Source of the DNA: the human T2T-CHM13v2.0 reference genome, Homo sapiens
Assembly: GCF_009914755.1 (NCBI RefSeq)
Contig: NC_060926.1
Reading direction: 5' to 3' (one strand)
DNA: 64,000 bases
Positions 12,697 through 50,059 of this stretch are shown here, piece by piece. A program made the translations under genes and the position numbers. The notes beneath the pieces are model-generated. The model searched no databases and was not told where the DNA came from. It saw only the letters and a program-made list of their open reading frames with translations. The first letter of the stretch is position 1; each line of letters begins with the position of its first letter.

Positions 12697-12735
12697 CTTC
12701 TGACAGCCTGACCACCACCTTCCCCTCATCTTCCT
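12697..12735 (-). CDS. TNS1: Tensin 1 39-nt microexon, EEDEGKVVVRLSE
   Basis: Long pyrimidine tract ending cttccctcag|AG GAA GAT; donor GAA G|gtaagt; phase 1-1; peptide recalled from the canonical TNS1 protein. Confidence 0.92.
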
Positions 12736-13219: not shown

Positions 13220-13243
13220 CTGGCTGGATCCGTCTTCTGGTAA
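13220..13243 (-). CDS. TNS1: Tensin 1 24-nt microexon, VTRRRIQP
   Basis: Acceptor ttttttccttag|TT ACC AGA; donor CCA G|gtaggt; phase 1-1; peptide recalled from the canonical TNS1 protein. Confidence 0.92.
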
Positions 13244-14307: not shown

Positions 14308-14400
14308 CTCCTGTGGGGTGCAACAGGATGTCCGCTGGGTTGTGAGGTTTCAGGCCCAGAGCAGACAGGGGTGTCTTGGCCAGACCCGGGGGGGACCGCA
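14308..14400 (-). CDS. TNS1: Tensin 1 coding exon (93 nt), [31 protein letters not shown]
   Basis: Acceptor cttcctggcacag|TG CGG; donor GGA G|gtgagt; phase 1-1; [14 protein letters not shown] is a conserved tensin motif. Confidence 0.96.
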
Positions 14401-18875: not shown

Positions 18876-19072
18876 CTCTTTGGGCCGCCCTCCAGGATTG
18901 AGAGCGATGGTAAGAGCCAGCTCCGGGGAGACACACTGGACAGGGGAGCGAACCCCAGGGCTACGAGGGGATGTGGCTTCTGGAGACTGGTTCTCATACT
19001 GTCCATCACTGGCCGCCCGCCTCCGCAGAGGGGCTGGGGGCTCTGCAGGCTGCTTCTCCCGAGCCTGTACCC
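18876..19072 (-). CDS. TNS1: Tensin 1 coding exon (197 nt), GVQAREKQ...NPGGRPKE
   Basis: Acceptor tttcctcccag|GG GTA CAG; donor AAA GAG|gtgagt; phase 1-0. Confidence 0.96.
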
Positions 19073-22000: not shown

Positions 22001-23794
22001 GCCACTGGGTCACCCTCAGAACCTCTAGGGCCAGCCCCTACCCCAGCAGGAGGCCGTGTGGCCAGAGGAAGAAAGGAAGAGAAGCTCCCAGGAGGCTGAG
22101 AAGGCTGGGGTACCCTTATGACAACAAAGTATCTTTAGGACCCTAACACCCTATGTTCAAGGAGCCCTGGGCGTTCTCTAAGGGCTGCTTCATACACGGG
22201 CATCAGGCCTTCCCCACAGCCCTGCCAGGATGAGCAGTTACCCCAGCCCCAGGGTTCCACACAGGCCCCCAGACCTGAGGAGCAGGGCACCAGAGCAGCC
22301 CCCTTCCCAGGGAGGCGTCACTCTTCTGCCAGGACAGTGCTGTGCTGGACAACAGCTCACTCCAAGGCTCCCCTAGCGTGAGCCAGACTGGAGGCAATTA
22401 ATCCCCTTCATCTGACACACACACGCACACACACTCACACGCACACTCGCACACCCTGCAATTCTGGGAGCTGTAGCCCTGACACAGACCGATACATGTA
22501 CTTTGGCAAAGCACTGCTGCCCACCACCCCTGGATCACGTGACGAGTACCCTGGTGTCAGGCTTCATGATGTGCCTCCTCTGCACCCCCCAGACCGGCCA
22601 CTGCCACCCTCACAGCCCCAGCTCTTCTTTCCAGTCTTCCGATTTCCAAAAGACTGGATTCCTCAGGTCCAGGTAGCAGGGCTGGGTGTCCGACAGCATG
22701 CCTGGGGCTCCAGAAGCGAGGGGATCCGGGAGGCCACCTGCTGGGCCAGGGTGCCAGAAAGCCACACGGCGATCACACTAGCAGCCCTAGGGCAAGCCAT
22801 GCCAGCTCCCCTTAAGGCAGGCCCACCATCCCAGAACCTGCCCCTACCCAGGCCCAGCTGAACACTACACTCCCCACCACTGGGCTGAGAGAAGGGCAGA
22901 GGAAGAAGAAAGGAGGGAGGGGCGGTTGAAGGGAGCAGTCTGCTAGAGCCATCTCCTGATCATCCCTGGACTGGGAGAAGAAGGGACCATGGAGGCACCA
23001 GATAACTGACATTGGGAATCAACAGTTCCCATTGCCCCTAGGCCTTTTCCTGGAGCTGCTCAGGGGCATGGTGTAGGGCAGGCCTGAGCATGGCATCTTC
23101 CCTGACCCAGCCTCCAGTGTCAGAGGAGCAGGGGAAGGAAGAGGTGATTCCCTGGCCAGGGCTCAACGCCTAAGGGCCTGCGTGTCCCAGAGGCCAGGGG
23201 TAGATGTTAGTGGACGGCATCATTCTCAAATGAATTACTGTGACCCCAGTGAAGCATCCACAAGGTCCAGGGCATGTCAAACCACCGTGCAAAATACACA
23301 ACAGGACAGGACTATCATCTGTCCACTTCTCAGACTGGGAAATTGAGCTCTAAACAGTTAAGAAACTTGCCCAAGGTCACAGAGGTGGTCTCAGGCAGGG
23401 CCAGGACCCCAACCCAGGGCTTCTGACTCTTGGCCATGGGATCAGAGATTAGGAGTGGGACCAGAGGGGGTACGCTGTCCCCAGGGTGTGCCATGCTCTA
23501 GAGTGGACAGAGCAGCAGGGGCTGGGGCACCACTCTGTGTTGTGTCTGGTGGCCCCATGCAAAGCTCAGCCTGGCTCCTGCCGAGACCTAGCCCTGCAGC
23601 CCAGGCAGTCTGGCCAGGGTGGCCGGAGTGCTGGACTGTCCAGAGCCCTCCTGAGCACCCTCATTGCAAAGGCCTGCATCTCCTCAGGGGACCCTGAATG
23701 TTAGTCTAGTTATTCCAGGCATTGTTCCCAGCAGGCAAGGCCAAGGCTAGCATGAGGCCCATGTTCATGCAGAAGTGAGCTCTGGCTCATGCAG

Positions 23795-24060
23795 ACAGGA
23801 GGGAGAGAGGGCTGGAGAGAGGAGGGATGGAGAAGTAAGTGAGGAGACAGAAGAGAGGATAGTGAGAAATGGGGAAGGAGAAGGAGAAACAGATGGAAAC
23901 CAGAGAACAACAGAAGAGGGAGAGGAAAAGACAGAGGAGAGAAGGAAGAAGGTGGGAAAGATTTGGAAGGAATAGCACATGAAGAAGGAGTGAAAAGAAA
24001 CTGATGCTCAAAAGTGGGCCAAAGAGCTGGAAAGGGAGAAGGGGGAAGGAGAGCCACCCA
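23795..24060. repeat. Long purine-rich (GA) low-complexity tract; CU-rich on the pre-mRNA
   Basis: ~260 bp dominated by G/A on the plus strand. Confidence 0.8.
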
Positions 24061-24061
24061 C

Positions 24062-24148
24062 CAGAGAGGGAGGAAGATTGGAGCCGGTGGAGAGGAGGGG
24101 GCGGGAAGCTGCCACTGTGTCCGATGCCCTGCAGCCTGGCGTTGTACG
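24062..24148 (-). CDS. TNS1: Candidate alternative TNS1 cassette exon (87 nt), AYNARLQGIGHSGSFPPPPLHRLQSSSLS
   Basis: Acceptor gggcag|CG TAC AAC; donor TCT G|gtgggt; phase 1-1, stop-free in the TNS1 frame; retains CpGs; preceded by a ~194-nt AG-free zone. Confidence 0.75.
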
Positions 24149-24289
24149 CTGCCCACCCCCCACCCCAGGGGAGCCAGCAGGGAGTGGGAGGCAGGAAGGA
24201 AGGGAGGATATGGGGCAAGGCAGGCACCCCACCAACAGCACAGGGAACAGATGGACATGGGAAACACAGAGAGTGCAGGGGACGGGGCA

Positions 24290-24338
24290 TTAAACAGGAC
24301 AAAACACAACAAAAACAAAGAGAAAATCAAGATTAGTT
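24290..24338 (-). promoter_or_regulatory. Distant branch point (ACUAAU) and polypyrimidine tract for the 87-nt exon
   Basis: Minus strand CCAACTAATCTTGATTTTCTCTTTGTTTTTGTTGTGTTTTGTCCTGTTT; no AG between here and the acceptor at 24149-24150. Confidence 0.7.
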
Positions 24339-24849
24339 GGTGTTCTGACTCTGGTATCTGGGCACACACTGGAGGGAGGTGGGGAAGGTATCAGACAGGA
24401 AGAGAGGGGGATCCAAGGTCCTGCTTCTCCAAGAGGCAGATGGACCTCCTGCTGGCCAGCACCACAGCGTTTCCCTCTCTTCTAACCCCAGGGTGGAAGC
24501 AGAGGTGCCATCGTGGGACCAGGAGAATTCACGCATCCCTCACCTGCTCCCATAGGCAGCAGGCCTGTCCCTGGACCACCCATCTTTTCCTGGGCACCTG
24601 CCTCTCCCTGGACCCAGGTAACACACCCAGCCTGAGCCCAAGGGTCACCCTCTCTCACACCCTGGCTCCTTACCACAGCCATCTGAGTGATCCTCTTTCC
24701 TGGGGAACCCCTTGTGCTTTTCTGCTCTGGCCCCCAGCTTCTGGTCATCACCAGAAAAGTCCTTAAGATGAACCTTCTCAGATGCACTAGAAGGACCTGC
24801 TATGTTATCCTTTCCTTGCCCCTTGTTGACTTCTAACCCACCTTCACAC

Positions 24850-30372: not shown

Positions 30373-31024
30373 CTGCTACCCTGTGGGCCACCAGCCCTTC
30401 TAAATTCAATGGCTCCTCCTCTGGAGTCCGGGAGGGGTCTGAAGTCGCTTCCTTTGGTGAGAGCAGAGGCTGAGCAGTGAGGCCAGGGAGAGAGGCTGGG
30501 GGTTGCTGAGGCCCTGGAGGGCTGTGGGTGGTCGGAAGGAAGGCAGGCAAGGAGGAAGAGGCTGGGCTCTTTGAATGGAAATCCTGGTTAGGCCCAGCCA
30601 AACATGGCTGATAGTCATAAGGTGAGTAAGACCTGCCAGGAGGGACAGACTCCAGAGAGGCCCGTGGGGCTGGCTCAGGGGTTCCCAACGAATGCCCACT
30701 GGGGATATAGCCAGATCTGGACTGGGTCAGTGGATGGGACTGACGGGAGGATCCAGAGAGGGGCTGGGAGGAGAGTGGAGAAGCCCCTGGCCAGGCCCCG
30801 GGGACACTCTGGGACTTGTGTAGTGGGGCAGCAGCGGAGGCTGGCTCCAGGTCCAGCATCAGCATATTGAGTGTTTCGATGGACTGTTCAATCTCCTGCT
30901 GGGAGGCTGCTCGCGGGAACTCAGGGAGACTGGGGATGGGGGTCTCTGCCAATGGCTGAGGGCTGGGCCTGCTGGCTACAAGACTCTCCAAGTGGGCTCT
31001 TTCCTGCTGGCGTGGAGGTGGGCG

Positions 31025-31057
<33 letters not shown>

Positions 31058-31950
31058 TGAATTCAGTCCCCTTTGCACAGCCTCCCGGCTGCTTCCCCCT
31101 CGGACCGGAGCTGGGGGCAGCTGGGGTTCAGCTTCCGAAAAGGATTGAGAGCGGAACATACCGCTGGGGTCATGGGCATAGTGGGAGGTGGTCACTGGCT
31201 GTGGCCAGGCTGGGTGGGGCCCCTCCCTCTGGTAGCCAGCTAAACCCTCCTGTGCAGAGTAGGAGGGCCGCATGGGGGCCGTGTGGCCAGCATGGGCAGG
31301 CCCCGCCCGGCTGGCAGACTCGTAGGGGTAGCCTCCTCCATTGACCATAGGCTCCATGGGGTAGGACTTGTCCAGACCGTTGGTCAGTGGGGACAGGGCC
31401 TCTGGGTAGCCCCCCTCACTGGTGTTGGTGACCCCGTCCAGAGAAGAGAGTGTGCCCATGCTGCCCGCACTGTGACCATCCTGGTTTGGCAATTCATCGT
31501 CCAGGATGTCTGTCTCCCGCTCAGATGCTAACGCCCCACCATTGACATGAACCTGGGCTGGGACAACGTGGCGTCCAGAGGAGGGCACAGCCGAGCCCCC
31601 TGCTGGGCGGGACCTGAGGTGCTGGGTGTGGTACATGGCGCCTTGCTTCTCTCGCTCTAAGCCAAAGCCACTCAGCAGGCGGTCCAGCTCCCGCTTCTCC
31701 TGGGGACTCAAGGCAGCAGTGGCACTGGAGGCCCCGGGGACAGGCTCGTCGGTCTTGTCGGTCTTGGTGGAGGCTGTGGAGTTGCCCGAGTCGCTGCTCA
31801 CAGAAAGCGTGTGTTCCACGTGGTTGGGGGTGGCCGACAGTGTAGGACGTGTGGCATTAACAGCCCCGGTGCTGCCGTGCAGGGAGTCTTTCTTCTTCAC
31901 CTTAGCATACAGGCTCCCATCTAGTGGCCCCTGCGTGTGTCCCACCACCT
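30373..31950 (-). CDS. TNS1: Tensin 1 giant coding exon (1578 nt), [21 protein letters not shown]...[11 protein letters not shown]
   Basis: Acceptor tcccttgcag|AG GTG GTG; donor GCA G|gtaaga; phase 1-1; lies within the 566-aa ORF; contains Q9 and [16 protein letters not shown]. Confidence 0.97.
31028..31054 (-). repeat. TNS1: Uninterrupted (CAG)9 coding repeat (polyQ)
   Basis: Nine ctg triplets on the plus strand, translated as QQQQQQQQQ. Confidence 0.95.
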
Positions 31951-46372: not shown

Positions 46373-47784
46373 AGCTAGACTGAGGGATGAAGGAGCCTGG
46401 GGTGTAATAGACCGATCTCCGAACTAAGACTCAAGAGTCTTGGGTTTCAACCCCATCTGGGCCACTACTTCACTGCTTAAACTTGGGCAAGTGATTTCCT
46501 TTTCCTGGGACTCAGTTTCCAACGTGGTAAAATGAGTGGGAGGAGATAAGCTTTGAACTCTAAAACTTCTGGTTCTATGGACAGCCATCAAGGAAGAGAA
46601 AGACATGGCTGGAGGGAGCAGTCAGGACAGGAGAAGGAAGGGGTCTCCCAAGATAGGCATGGTGTCAAGGTTCAAACGTCTGGGGATAGAGGGAGGAAGG
46701 GCCCGCTGCCTGGGGTGGGCACAGCAGCTGCATATGTGATGAAAACATGTCCTTAGACCTCCCCAGGACCTCCTCCCTGCCTCCCAGCCCAGTGGACAGG
46801 GAAGACAGGGCCATCGGAGCAGGACAAGCTTCAGGCACCCCTGGCAGGGCCTCAGCCTTCCAGGGTCTTCACACTTCCCATCCCAGGAAGGCAGTGGGCA
46901 GGGCCAGGCCCAGGAGCATGTTCCCTAAGAACAGGACAGGAGCCCTAGTGCCAGAGGATTACTCAGGAAGGGAATTGTCAACTCCCAGGCAGATGTTTGT
47001 GTTGGATGAGGGTCGGGACATATCCACTCACCGCGCTTCTGCTTCTCCCCACCCTTACTGCTCCCAGGACGTGGACACCATGTCAGTGGCAGTCCTCACT
47101 GAATGGGGAGAGGGTATATGGGGCTTTGGGAGCAAGGGCGAAGGAGAGGGTAGAATGGAATGAGGCAGGCATGTTATTGAGTATGTGCCTGCACGTTAAT
47201 GGAAGTTCCCTTGCTTGGTTCCACAACTGCCTTTCAAAGTGGATATTGTTATGCCATCTTCCTGATAAAGAAACTAAGGCTCAGGGGTTGGAGCTTGCTC
47301 AGGATTACATTGCCAGTCTGACTCTGACATTCATGCTCTTTCTGCTTCCCAGAAAGGAAGGAGAAACAAGAAAGGAGATGGAGGAGGCAAAGGTTTAGAT
47401 CTTAGAAGATCCAACAAGAAAAAAGGAGTGGAGAGTGACAATAAAGTCACAATGCTGGTTTATAACAAACTCCAGCAGGCAAGTGAGCACTGTCCCCATC
47501 AAACTGGTTCCCTGGGAATTTTATGCATTTATCCTCACAATGCTACCAGAGCTCAAAGCATTTCTGGAAACAAGTAGAACACTGCCTCAGGGCTGGTTTA
47601 TAATTCACACGAATGAAACCATCTCTGCAAGTGAGGTCAATCACTATTCCTGATCCCAAACAGGCCCATTCTCTCAGCATCCACATATAAGTTGGGTTAT
47701 CAAACTGGCTGGGCAGTTTTATAATTACAGCTCCCAATACTGTACGCAGTGGGGCAGAGTTGGGGTACGCAGTGGGGCAGAGAT

Positions 47785-48065
47785 CCATGTGGTTCCATGC
47801 AGAGAGGTGGGTGTGTGCAGAGGAGCCCATGTGGTTCCATGCATGAGAGGTGGCTATGACTACAGGGGTCCATGTGCTTCCATGCATGAGAGGTGGCTAT
47901 GACTAGAGGGATCCATGTGGTTCCATGCATGAGAGGTGGTTGTGAGCAGAGGGGTCCATGTGGTTCCATGTGTGAGAGGTGACTATGAGTCAAGGGGTCC
48001 CTGTGGCTCCATGCATGAGAGGTGGCTATGAGTACAGGAGTCCATGTGGTTACATGCATGAGTAG
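47785..48065. repeat. Minisatellite, ~43-bp unit, ~6.5 copies
   Basis: Unit ccatgtggttccatgcatgagaggtggctatgactacaggggt starting at 47785, 47827, 47870, 47913, 47956, 47999, 48042. Confidence 0.95.
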
Positions 48066-50059
48066 GTGCAGAGGTGGGTGGAGGATCTGGGTGGGTATCT
48101 GCTTCCTTCCCCAAATAAGCCCATCTAGGGCTAGGCTGAAAGTGACTCACTTATGCAGAGGCCACCAAACCATGAAGCACAGGCCTGCATGGCAGACAGA
48201 AGCCAGGGCACCACCCTTGGGCCTTTCTGCCTTTGCATCACATGAGGAGCGCCCATCTGCTTCTCGAAGGTTCTCAAGCAATGTGCAGACAGAGAGAGGA
48301 AGGCAGGGAAGAAGGAGAGAGCTGAGAAGCTTTGAGCTTTCATATCAAAATCTGATCTCACTGCCCCTGGAGAAGGAGAAGAACACACATCAAAGAACAC
48401 TTTGCTGCTAACAATTTTTTTAAGCAATCAAAGGCATAAGTCCCAGATAAGCAGCCAGGGCATCGACTGGCTGTAAAGATGTAAAGATTGGGCAGTCTGA
48501 AGCTCCCCACATCCATCAACAGCTCTGTTGCTGCTTCCCAGGGCACAGGGAGATAAATGGCCCAGGGATTGAACAACTGAGGTCCAGTATTCTGGAGCCA
48601 GGAGTGTCTGAGGCAGGACACCCCAGGTCCCTGAGGGATAGTCTTGTGAGTGTAAATAATGCTTGAGCAAAGAAAGAGGGGCAGGAGAAAAGGGACTTTG
48701 GGGTGAGACTCCTGAGTCCCCTTTGCACAAGAATGAGCTAGGACCTTGTCAGAACCCTCTAGAAGTTGCCTTGTTTTCCCATGTCCACAAGCCATGGTCA
48801 CTCATCCTACCTAGACAGATGCGTGGAGTGGAAAGGTTCTTCTCCTCAACTTTCAGAAAATCTAGAAAATCTAGTCCTGGCACCTGTTCCTGTTACTCAG
48901 ATCCCCCAAAGGCAAGAGGGTTCTCCTGAATGTCAGACCTCCATCCTTCCAGCAGCAGCTAAAACTCACCTCTCCAACTCTGCCCCTAGATCTCTAACCA
49001 GCCACGGTGTAACAAACAGACCTAAAGAAAATGCTGCCTGGCTGCAGCAGCAGACTAGGAGCCAAAGAGCCAGAATTCTAAGGGGTGATTTTGGACAGGC
49101 CTCAGTTTACTCCACTGTGCAATGGCAGAGGGCAAGTATAGGTGATCCCTAAAGTCCTGTTTGGATCTGGATCCTCAAGGATACAACTCAGAGAAGATGC
49201 TCTACCAGGCACTGTTTGGATCCCAGAGCCCCTGGACTTGGCAGGCCTGTATCTCCTCTCCTGCTTGGACCTGCCCGGGTGGCTTCAGGCTCCAAACTTG
49301 TCTGAGGCTATTTCTGCAGCAGCCATGGAGTCCCTGAGGCTAGGACAGAAAAGGGGACTTACAGGAAGTCTGTAAACACACACCAGGCTGCAGAGGTTCC
49401 CAGGGCCATGCAGGGCAATCAAGAGGCTGATTTATTTTCATCAGTGAAATGCTGAAACTTAATCCCTGGAGCAAGCTGACCCGGCAGACAGCGGCAGGCA
49501 GCTCCTCAACCAGAGCAGAATTAGCTAGTCCGCAGCCTCTCAGGCCTCTCCACTGGGGCTGGCAGAGGGAGGGGACAGGGAGAAGGCTGGGGCTGGCCAG
49601 TTCAGCCACTGTGGCTCCAGATCCCTTGGGCTGGCCTCTCCCCTCCCCCATCACTGGCCTGCAAGGGTCTCCAGGACACAGGCACAGCATTGGGCAGAGC
49701 TGGACAGGCAGGCTTCCCACTTTAACTCAGTTCCTATTCCCTAGGTTCTCAAACCCCAACTGCATGGGGCAGCAGGGCAGGGCTCCTCAGGACTCCTACC
49801 CTTGTCAGAAATGGTGAGAAATGTTATGCTGAGAAATGGTGGGTGTCAGAATCCAAGCTCTACCCCTACCTGGCTGTGTAAGCATCAGTAAGTTACTTAA
49901 CCTCTCTGTGCTTGTTTCTTCATCTGTGAAATAGGAACAAGAGAACTCAGGTCACAGGAGAGTCATGAGGAGTACAAGAAATTATGGGTACCTAACAGTA
50001 TCTCACATATTGGGGGGTGCATATTAAAGGAGGTGGGCGGATAGATTCTCCTCCTCATC

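What the first reader, a model, noticed from the sequence alone, without database searches (positions are those of the whole stretch)
23766..24344. Hidden in-frame 87-nt exon with distant branch point and full muscle-type splicing code
Seen: exon 24062-24148 would insert AYNARLQGIGHSGSFPPPPLHRLQSSSLS between ...AHRVA and GVQAREK. Its acceptor is G-rich and looks weak, but no AG occurs for ~194 nt upstream (24151-24344), where ACUAAU plus a U-rich tract sit ~185 nt away. Downstream are ~260 nt of CU-rich sequence and two UGCAUG (23788-23793, 23766-23771). Established: this layout resembles regulated tropomyosin and alpha-actinin exons; ACUAAY binds QKI/SF1; FPPPP is the Ena/VASP EVH1 ligand core. 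Inference: a tissue-specific exon, absent from the canonical protein as I recall it, that adds an Ena/VASP docking site to tensin 1.
Basis: partly seen in the sequence, partly recalled or inferred. Interest (0 to 1): 0.8.

Follow-up and report, generated by a model that had tools for sequence, protein, structure and literature searches.

The report
Annotated tensin-1 muscle-type cassette exon
This is a real but already annotated 87-base optional exon of the human tensin-1 gene, kept from frogs to humans and built like other muscle-regulated exons, while the proposed Ena/VASP docking motif inside it is found only in monkeys and humans.

Summary
Window 24062-24148 (minus strand) is an 87-nt in-frame cassette that would insert AYNARLQGIGHSGSFPPPPLHRLQSSSLS between AHRVA and GVQAREK. 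Its acceptor lies behind G tracts. A 194-nt AG-free zone precedes it, with AACUAAU plus a U-rich tract at its 5' end. A 262-nt tract of 84% C+T and two UGCAUG follow.

The exon is not hidden. The hub's RefSeq table lists exactly these coordinates in other TNS1 transcripts. Predicted tensin-1 isoforms of 84 other tetrapod species, amphibians to primates, carry it.

The layout fits known classes: long-AG-exclusion-zone (distant branch point) exons, G-tract 'REPAG' acceptors, and PTB-type flanks with RBFOX sites downstream. Smith-lab papers describe a smooth-muscle 'Tns1 exon 22' activated by RBPMS, MBNL1/2 and RBFOX2 but not QK. It is probably this exon, but I could not prove that because the supplements were closed.

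The Ena/VASP idea is weak. FPPPP occurs in 2 of 85 species rows and an EVH1-type core in 3 of 85, all anthropoid primates. It has no acidic flank, extra prolines or second motif. What is conserved is YNxKL (85/85) and a basic Ser-rich tail (R..S 83/85, R.R..S 61/85). That points to a phospho-regulated linker segment.

Verdict: ordinary, already known.

The parts
24062..24148 (-). 87-nt cassette exon of TNS1. One base is carried in and one carried out. It encodes (A)YNARLQGIGHSGSFPPPPLHRLQSSSLS(G).
   Evidence: The hub's RefSeq table has the same coordinates. Orthologous peptides were found in 84 species.
24149..24150 (-). Acceptor AG.
24152..24166 (-). G tracts between the pyrimidine-rich region and the 3' AG: GGG at -4..-6, G6 at -8..-13, G4 at -15..-18. 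This is a 'REPAG'-type acceptor.
   Evidence: 35% pyrimidine in the last 20 nt. The definition and hnRNP H/F silencing are taken from passages of PMC6339879.
24151..24344 (-). 194-nt AG dinucleotide exclusion zone.
24332..24338 (-). AACUAAU, the best branch-site candidate (branch A24333, 184 nt from the acceptor G). It matches TACTAAC at 5 of 7 positions and fits yUnAy.
   Evidence: This is a prediction and has not been mapped.
24292..24331 (-). U-rich polypyrimidine tract directly after the candidate branch site (68% U, 80% pyrimidine in the next 40 nt).
24056..24061 (-). Donor gtgggt, after exon end CTG. It is non-consensus at -2 and +4.
23800..24061 (-). CU-rich downstream tract (84% C+T). 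It is dense in PTB-type motifs: the 300 nt downstream hold 42 YCUY (top 0.2% of 637 tiles) and 8 UCUU (top 0.8%).
23788..23793 (-). UGCAUG (RBFOX-type), 269 nt downstream of the exon.
23766..23771 (-). UGCAUG (RBFOX-type), 291 nt downstream of the exon.
23700..23712 (-).
   Evidence: Sequence. The motif definition is recalled.
23492..23640 (-). Further downstream cluster. CACN1-12CAC starts at 23630, 23551, 23544 and 23505. GCAUG is at 23560 and 23496.
   Evidence: The RBPMS motif definition is from passages of PMC6613909.

Best explanation
This is a real, already annotated cassette exon of TNS1, conserved across tetrapods. It adds 29 residues to the long domain-free linker of tensin-1 between the C2 and SH2 domains.

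The following steps are inferred. The exon is skipped by default because it is poorly defined:
- The acceptor is separated from its pyrimidine tract by G tracts, a known silencer arrangement.
- The branch site and U tract most likely sit 140-185 nt upstream, at the start of a 194-nt AG-free zone.
- The donor is sub-consensus.
- Both flanks carry dense PTB-type CU motifs.

Inclusion is most likely switched on in differentiated, chiefly smooth, muscle-type cells. The likely activators act from downstream: RBFOX at the two UGCAUG, possibly with MBNL and RBPMS, as PTB repression falls.

At protein level, the conserved payload is a YNAKL(R/Q) head and a P-x-P-P-L-H-R-x-R-S-x-S-x-S tail. The tail looks like a basophilic-kinase or 14-3-3-type phospho-site. 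The FPPPP of humans and macaques is a late primate change in the variable middle.
For: Shown directly:
- Exon, frame and splice sites.
- Identical coordinates in the hub's RefSeq table.
- All 121 long proteins held after carry the insert.
- In 85 species rows (human plus 84), YN.[KR]L is present in 85/85, R..S in 83/85 and R.R..S in 61/85.
- The insert lies at residues 914-942 of macaque isoform X11, between PTEN_C2 (209-335) and SH2 (1528-1622).

Architecture:
- The AG-free zone of 194 nt is the longest of 5148 gaps. Seven constitutive acceptors have 24-77 nt.
- AG avoidance goes beyond composition (149/10000 shuffles).
- The only yUnAy candidates in the zone are A24333, A24327 and A24290. 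A24333 has the best heptamer and is followed by 68% U.
- The acceptor has 35% pyrimidine, with GGG inside -15..-3.
- PTB-type motifs are in the top 0.2-0.8% of tiles downstream and the top 4-12% upstream. YGCY upstream is in the top 6%.

Literature (passages read):
- AG-free zones of 150 nt or more mark a class of distant-branch-point exons enriched for alternative splicing; the rat alpha-tropomyosin exon 3 branch point is at -175 in ggCTAAC (PMC1431707).
- Differentiated smooth-muscle cassette exons have longer AG-free zones, weaker splice sites and upstream PTBP1 motifs (PMC5062968).
- G tracts between the pyrimidine tract and the AG silence acceptors through hnRNP H/F and go with more distant branch points (PMC6339879).
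- Rat Tns1 exon 22 is activated by RBPMS, MBNL1/2 and RBFOX2. Its inclusion was 19% in differentiated and 2-3% in proliferative PAC1 cells (PMC12721327).
- Tns1 is named among splicing patterns typical of fully differentiated tissue smooth muscle (PMC6613909).
Against: - I saw no RNA-seq junction data, so the tissue pattern of this human exon is inferred.
- Identity with rat 'Tns1 exon 22' is unproven. Eight coding exons lie downstream of 545-1614, which makes the large exon number 20 of 33 in the selected transcript. The cassette would then be number 21 unless the rat model has one more 5' exon. Other TNS1 cassettes exist.
- No CACN1-12CAC cluster lies within 300 nt of either side. The nearest are about 360 nt upstream and 430-560 nt downstream.
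- The YGCY cluster is upstream, a position more often linked to repression (recalled). The paper reports MBNL as an activator.
- The branch point is not mapped. Non-consensus A residues at -36, -60 and -62 precede C-rich stretches.
- The fold of 24140-24345 is no more stable than shuffles (z -0.79).
- The phospho-site reading rests on motif conservation only. Humans have Q where most species have the -3 Arg, and birds lack R.R..S (0/13).
- The species table cannot show species that lack the exon, because exon-bearing isoforms were ranked first.
Confidence: 0.72

Rival explanations
1. One reading: the purpose of the exon is to add a tissue-specific Ena/VASP EVH1 docking site (FPPPP) to tensin-1.
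For: - Human and macaque peptides contain exact FPPPP.
- FP4 is the optimal EVH1 core (passage of PMC3514034).
- In the 1800-residue macaque isoform, the exon supplies one of only two EVH1-type regex hits. The other is LPPAP at 659.
Against: - FPPPP is in 2 of 85 species rows and the EVH1-type regex in 3 of 85, all anthropoid primates. Other lineages have FRPSP, FWHPP, SGHPP, SRLPP, SMHSP, SPHPP or APRPP at that place.
- It is a single motif with no acidic residues, no extra C-terminal prolines and a basic flank (GSFPPPPLHRLQ). Acidic flanks, C-terminal prolines or paired motifs raise affinity, and FPPPPPPPP alone binds ENAH EVH1 at 28 uM (passages of PMC8789275).
- Endogenous Mena overlapped only weakly with GFP-tensin in fibrillar adhesions (PMC3514034).
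- None of the three papers holding tensin, EVH1 and FPPPP reports a tensin-EVH1 contact in the titles, abstract starts or passages I saw. None of the 12 listed papers holds TNS1.
Confidence: 0.1
2. The branch point is proximal or only moderately distant (A24185 at -36, or A24209/A24211 at -60/-62). On this reading the long AG-free zone is a by-product of a CU/GU-rich binding platform for PTB, MBNL or hnRNP H, not a scanning zone from a branch point at -184.
For: - A C-rich stretch with 85-88% pyrimidine follows A24211 and A24209.
- The downstream 187-nt AG-free tract is fully explained by composition (4926/10000 shuffles). So such tracts can arise here without a branch-point role.
- Gooding et al. 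estimate that only one-fifth to one-half of AG-free zones of 100 nt or more mark distant branch points (PMC1431707).
Against: - None of the proximal A residues fits yUnAy. They match TACTAAC at 2-3 of 7 positions, against 5 of 7 for A24333.
- The upstream zone avoids AG beyond its composition (149/10000).
- The strongest U tract sits next to ACUAAU.
- In PTBP1 exon 11, a well-scoring site at -51 was inert while the site at -351 was essential (PMC1431707).
Confidence: 0.28
3. The exon is annotation noise or a rarely used pseudo-exon with no function.
For: - It is absent from the selected transcript.
- Its splice sites are weak.
- The flanking introns stay open in the same frame for 70 codons, so an open frame alone means little.
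Against: The peptide is kept with conserved ends in amphibians (8), birds (13), squamates (9), turtles (8), marsupials (4) and placentals (43 with human). Lengths are 26-37 residues, mostly 29.
Confidence: 0.03

Closest known systems
Rat 'Tns1 exon 22', a smooth-muscle differentiation exon (PMC12721327; Tns1 also named in PMC6613909 and PMC11646123)
   Same: Same gene. It is a low-inclusion cassette raised in differentiated smooth muscle. The RBFOX2 activation reported fits the two downstream UGCAUG here, and the lack of QK dependence fits the incomplete upstream QKI site.
   Different: Identity is not shown. The coordinates are in supplements I could not open. My exon count puts this cassette at about number 21 in the human selected transcript. 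I found no CAC clusters within 300 nt in the human sequence.
Distant-branch-point exons with long AG exclusion zones: alpha-tropomyosin exon 3, alpha-actinin SM exon, PTBP1 exon 11 (Gooding et al. 2006, PMC1431707)
   Same: The AG-free zone is 150 nt or more. A consensus-like branch sequence with an adjacent U tract sits at its 5' end, and there is no good site near the acceptor. The exon is alternatively spliced and has PTB-type motifs.
   Different: The branch point here is only predicted. Tpm1 exon 3 is repressed in smooth muscle, whereas this exon is probably activated there. The details of the alpha-actinin SM exon are recalled, not read.
[quoted passage not shown]
   Same: GGG runs lie within -15..-3 of the acceptor. 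The exon is alternative and the branch-site candidates are displaced upstream.
   Different: The branch points in that paper are mostly within 100 nt; here the best candidate is at -184. hnRNP H/F binding was not tested. TNS1 does not occur in the paper's main text.
Ena/VASP EVH1 class I ligands (FP4 motifs of ActA, zyxin, vinculin, ABI1)
   Same: The exact FPPPP core is present in the human peptide.
   Different: It is a single copy with no acidic flank or proline extension. It is confined to anthropoid primates. No binding data exist. The zyxin and vinculin examples are recalled.

Membership tests
Long-AGEZ / distant-branch-point exons (Gooding 2006) | AG exclusion zone of at least 100 nt (strict set: at least 150 nt) upstream of the acceptor | tested here: met
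   194 nt. It is the longest of 5148 gaps in the window.
Long-AGEZ / distant-branch-point exons (Gooding 2006) | Consensus-like branch sequence with an adjacent pyrimidine tract toward the 5' end of the zone | tested here: met
   AACUAAU at 24338-24332 matches at 5 of 7 positions. The next 40 nt are 68% U.
Long-AGEZ / distant-branch-point exons (Gooding 2006) | No obvious branch site or pyrimidine tract close to the acceptor | tested here: inconclusive
   No yUnAy A lies within 140 nt, and the last 20 nt are 35% pyrimidine. However, non-consensus A residues at -36, -60 and -62 precede C-rich stretches.
Long-AGEZ / distant-branch-point exons (Gooding 2006) | Branch nucleotide mapped, or inclusion lost on branch-site mutation | not testable with these tools
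   Needs lariat mapping or a minigene.
REPAG acceptors | GGG between -15 and -3 of the 3' splice site | tested here: met
   GGG at -4..-6 and G6 at -8..-13.
RBFOX-activated cassette exons | (U)GCAUG within about 300 nt downstream of the exon | tested here: met
   UGCAUG at +269 and +291. Two or more GCAUG are matched by 4.4% of tiles. The distance rule is recalled.
RBFOX-activated cassette exons | Inclusion responds to RBFOX level | not testable with these tools
   Reported for rat Tns1 exon 22, whose identity with this exon is unproven.
PTBP1-repressed exons | Clusters of UCUU/CUCUCU-type motifs in the flanking introns | tested here: met
   The 300 nt downstream hold 42 YCUY (top 0.2%), 8 UCUU (top 0.8%) and 3 CUCUCU. 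The 300 nt upstream hold 18 YCUY (top 4.2%). Binding and repression were not tested.
RBPMS direct targets | CACN1-12CAC clusters near the exon, downstream for activation | tested here: not met
   None within 300 nt on either side. The nearest are at 24515 and 24507 upstream and at 23630-23505 downstream. Human sequence only. The motif is from PMC6613909.
QKI response element | ACUAAY core with a UAAY half-site within 1-20 nt | tested here: not met
   The upstream ACUAAU (24337-24332) has no UAAY within 20 nt on either side. A complete UAAC-N3-ACUAAC does exist at 23712-23700. Rat exon 22 was not regulated by QK. The motif definition is recalled.
Ena/VASP EVH1 class I ligand | Core [FWYL]PxPhiP / FPPPP | tested here: met
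   FPPPP is in the human peptide.
Ena/VASP EVH1 class I ligand | Affinity-raising context: acidic flanks, C-terminal prolines or a second motif | tested here: not met
   The flanks are GHSGS and LHRLQSSS, and the motif is single. The criteria are from PMC8789275.
Ena/VASP EVH1 class I ligand | Motif conserved among orthologues | tested here: not met
   3 of 85 species rows.
Ena/VASP EVH1 class I ligand | Measured binding to an EVH1 domain | not testable with these tools
No PDB chain resembles the peptide (0 hits at E up to 10).

The most novel reading that the evidence does not exclude
In anthropoid primates an ancient, muscle-regulated tensin-1 cassette turned its variable middle (ancestral-looking SPHPP) into a working FPPPP. 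The included isoform, and only that isoform, would then recruit Ena/VASP to tensin-rich adhesions. In the same peptide, humans lost the -3 arginine of the older R-x-R-x-x-S site. Together this would be a lineage-specific rewiring of an adhesion scaffold through a tissue-specific exon.
Probability: 0.1. Interest if true: 0.55.

Novelty: already known. Interest (0 to 1): 0.22.

Why it matters
Tensin-1 links integrins to actin in fibrillar adhesions. Its splice isoforms are part of the smooth-muscle contractile versus proliferative switch.

This work places the exon in a defined regulatory class: a long AG-free zone, a G-tract acceptor, PTB flanks and RBFOX sites. It also shows which residues have been kept for the whole of tetrapod evolution. 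That directs experiments to the YNAKL head and the basic Ser-rich tail, and away from the eye-catching FPPPP.

The primate-only FPPPP remains a cheap, testable side question.

Tried and rejected
- Frame 1 of the exon gives RTTPG... and is not the coding frame.
- A 30-residue query was too short for the protein search. I lengthened the reference by five in-frame intron codons on each side.
- RNA folding of the AG-free zone found a G-tract/C-tract hairpin, but it is no more stable than shuffles (z -0.79; 46 of 200 shuffles fold at least as well). I dropped the structure idea.
- Tandem Repeats Finder found only four short low-score rows in 23600-24500. The CU tract is not a simple repeat array.
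- Exon numbering to tie this exon to rat 'exon 22' gave about number 21 and stayed ambiguous.
- Literature searches for a description of this exon found only the three RBPMS papers and a preprint version of one (10.1101/563304), none with coordinates in the main text.
- Literature searches for a tensin-EVH1 link found none.
Earlier findings were not open.
- The PDB sequence search with the peptide gave 0 hits.
Full report
**What is there**

On the minus strand, window 24062-24148 is an 87-nt segment. It is bounded by an acceptor ...ggggtggggggtgggcAG|CG and a donor CTG|gtgggt. The upstream TNS1 exon (30373-31950) ends ...L V A H R V A plus one carried G. The downstream exon (18876-19072) begins GG GTA CAG GCT CGG GAG AAG. 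Frame 1 of the segment alone is not the coding frame.

**The flanks are as described and unusual for this locus**

- No AG occurs between A24346 and the acceptor A24150. That is 194 nt, the longest of 5148 AG-to-AG gaps on this strand of the 64-kb window.
- The second longest gap (187 nt, 24002 to 23813) lies directly downstream of the same exon.
- Seven constitutive TNS1 acceptors in the window have AG-free zones of 24-77 nt.
- The upstream zone has 16 A and 43 G but no AG. Mononucleotide shuffles give a mean of 3.55 AG, and only 149 of 10000 have none. The downstream tract (14 A, 9 G) is explained by composition (4926 of 10000). The intervals were picked after the fact, so these numbers are descriptive.
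- ACTAAT sits at 24337-24332 and TGCATG at 23793 and 23771. The stretch 23800-24061 is 84% C+T.
- Tandem Repeats Finder reports only four short, low-score rows here.

**Splice-site anatomy**

The 20 nt before the acceptor AG are 35% pyrimidine, against 70-90% for the seven constitutive exons. They consist of G4, G6 and G3 runs.

Within the AG-free zone, only three A residues fit yUnAy: A24333 (AACTAAT), A24327 and A24290. A24333 matches TACTAAC at 5 of 7 positions and is followed by 40 nt that are 68% U. Non-consensus A residues at -36, -60 and -62 precede C-rich stretches.

The best prediction is therefore a branch site about 184 nt upstream, with alternatives at -178 and -141. A proximal branch cannot be excluded. 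A predicted hairpin between the G tracts and an upstream C-rich stretch is no more stable than shuffles (z -0.79).

**Regulatory motifs**

I compared the two flanks against 637 tiles of 300 nt from the same strand.

| Motif | 300 nt downstream | 300 nt upstream |
|---|---|---|
| YCUY | 42 (top 0.2%) | 18 (top 4.2%) |
| UCUU | 8 (top 0.8%) | 4 (top 11.8%) |
| CUCUCU | 3 (top 1.6%) | 2 (top 4.4%) |
| GCAUG | 2 (top 4.4%) | 0 |
| YGCY | 1 | 9 (top 6%) |
| CACN1-12CAC | 0 | 0 |

The nearest CAC clusters are at 24515 and 24507 upstream, and at 23630, 23551, 23544 and 23505 downstream. Two more GCAUG lie at 23560 and 23496.

The upstream ACUAAU has no UAAY half-site within 20 nt. A full UAAC-N3-ACUAAC lies at 23712-23700.

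**The exon is not hidden**

The hub's RefSeq table lists 24062-24148 among the exons of other TNS1 transcripts.

A search with the exon peptide found tensin-1 isoforms of macaque, marmoset and camel that carry it. That query was padded with five intron codons on each side to reach the tool's minimum length.

Two region searches followed:
- The first returned 194 proteins with E at or below 0.001 among 421 candidates.
- The second returned 197 proteins among 328 candidates.
- In each case only the best 120 were listed and examined.

All 121 long proteins held after carry the insert.

I took one protein per species and dropped the other isoforms. Names were mapped by hand from the tables. This gives 85 rows including human:

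| Group | Rows |
|---|---|
| Amphibians | 8 |
| Birds | 13 |
| Squamates | 9 |
| Turtles | 8 |
| Marsupials | 4 |
| Primates | 5 |
| Other placentals | 38 |

Lengths are 26-37 residues, mostly 29. Exon ends in two rows (Suricata, Elephas) were cut imprecisely. Because exon-bearing isoforms score best, the table says nothing about species that lack the exon. The models are mostly automatic predictions.

**What is conserved**

- YN.[KR]L is present in 85 of 85 rows.
- R..S is present in 83 of 85.
- R.R..S is present in 61 of 85. It is in 0 of 13 birds and is absent in human, which has RLQSSS.
- [LVIM].R..S is present in 64 of 85.

The sauropsid and amphibian form is close to EYNAKLRDIRKSMKSPHPPLHRQRSFSFS.

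The middle varies. Exact FPPPP occurs in 2 of 85 rows (human, macaque). An EVH1-type core ([FYWL]P.PP or [FYWL]PP[ALIVTFY]P, a regex written from memory of the ELM entry) occurs in 3 of 85, adding marmoset FPHPP. Other lineages show FRPSP, FWHPP, YRHPP, SGHPP, SRLPP, SMHSP, SPHPP or APRPP.

The insert lies in the domain-free linker between PTEN_C2 (209-335) and SH2 (1528-1622) of the macaque isoform.

**Literature**

Passages of PMC12721327 describe rat Tns1 'exon 22'. Inclusion was 19% in differentiated PAC1 cells and 2-3% after RBPMS or MBNL1 knockdown and in proliferative cells. It was activated by RBPMS, MBNL1/2 and RBFOX2 and was unaffected by QK.

PMC6613909 names Tns1 among patterns typical of fully differentiated tissue smooth muscle. 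It also gives CACN1-12CAC as the RBPMS motif. PMC11646123 lists TNS1 among RBPMS-induced changes in human cells.

To check the numbering, I mapped the macaque protein onto the window and 19 kb downstream of it. Eight coding exons follow 545-1614. The large exon is therefore about number 20 of 33, and this cassette about number 21. Identity with 'exon 22' is likely (my estimate is about 60%) but open.

For the class, three papers fit this exon:
- PMC1431707 defines exons with AG-free zones of 150 nt or more and distant branch points. It reports the rat alpha-tropomyosin exon 3 branch point at -175.
- PMC5062968 shows that differentiated smooth-muscle cassettes have longer AG-free zones, weaker splice sites and upstream PTBP1 motifs.
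- PMC6339879 describes G tracts between the pyrimidine tract and the AG as hnRNP H/F-dependent silencers linked to alternative exons and more distant branch points.

**The Ena/VASP idea**

FP4 is the optimal EVH1 core (PMC3514034). However, PMC8789275 shows the simple motif is an over-simplification. Acidic flanks, C-terminal prolines or paired motifs raise affinity, and FPPPPPPPP alone binds at 28 uM.

The human motif is single and sits in GHSGS-FPPPP-LHRLQ, with no acidic residue. In PMC3514034, Mena overlapped only weakly with GFP-tensin. Searches for tensin with EVH1 and FPPPP gave 3 papers. A search for TNS1 with EVH1 or ENAH listed 12 papers, none holding TNS1. No reported contact turned up.

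Given that 82 of 85 rows lack the motif, it cannot explain why the exon is kept. A primate-specific gain of function remains possible (about 10%).

**Verdict**

The exon is already annotated, ancient, and a member of well-described regulatory classes. The docking-site interpretation is not supported as its function.

The most likely mechanism is default skipping through a crippled, G-tract-masked acceptor with a displaced branch site and PTB-type flanks. RBFOX-type downstream sites, possibly with MBNL and RBPMS, would relieve this in differentiated muscle-type cells. Inclusion adds a conserved, probably phospho-regulated linker segment. The exon, the motifs and the conservation are shown here. 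The tissue pattern, the branch nucleotide, the factor dependence and the protein function are inferred.

Noticed in passing
window 22618-22737 (-): A second conserved cassette lies 1.3 kb downstream. It encodes GGLPDPLASGAPGMLSDTQPCYLDLRNPVFWKSEDWKEEL (120 nt, open in human, 78% identical to the dolphin exon). Many carnivore, whale, pangolin, elephant and some rodent isoforms include it right after the 87-nt exon. In human, the position of the orthologous donor reads GG rather than GT. The next GT (CT|GTGAGG) would break the frame.
   Followed up: partly
window 12697-12735 (-): Another TNS1 alternative exon, a 39-nt microexon, has a 115-nt AG-free zone before its acceptor. That is the fifth longest on this strand of the window.
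   Followed up: no
window 23700-23712 (-): UAAC-N3-ACUAAC, a complete bipartite QKI-type element, lies about 350 nt downstream of the exon.
   Followed up: no
window 23812-24002 (-): The 187-nt pyrimidine tract downstream of the exon ends in an AG (23813-23812). It has the form of a long polypyrimidine tract plus AG and could act as a decoy acceptor. Its lack of AG is explained by composition.
   Followed up: partly
window 24075-24083 (-), codons LQS: Human has Q where most species have the -3 Arg of R-x-R-x-x-S (RLRSSS or RQRSFS). Camel, sloth and beaver also have Q. Macaque keeps R.
   Followed up: partly
proteins P0003, P0004: Two 'hypothetical proteins' of 174 and 158 residues from metagenome sources are read-through translations of primate-like genomic DNA. 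They cover this exon and both intron flanks, which probably reflects host DNA in those data sets. The human frame is likewise open for 70 codons across the exon.
   Followed up: no
window about 47760-48140 (-): This is the densest GCATG cluster on this strand of the window: 6 within 300 nt, against 0.35 expected. It lies next to the RefSeq enhancer at 48182-48241.
   Followed up: no
window 14308-14400, 13220-13243, 12697-12735 (-): Comparing predicted isoforms shows further optional segments. A 31-residue block (VRSPPGLAK...LHPTG, the size of the 93-nt exon) is missing in one camel isoform. A 21-residue block (VTRRCIQPEEDEGKVVVRLSE, the summed size of the 24-nt and 39-nt exons) is present in macaque X11 but not in marmoset X5.
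   Followed up: no
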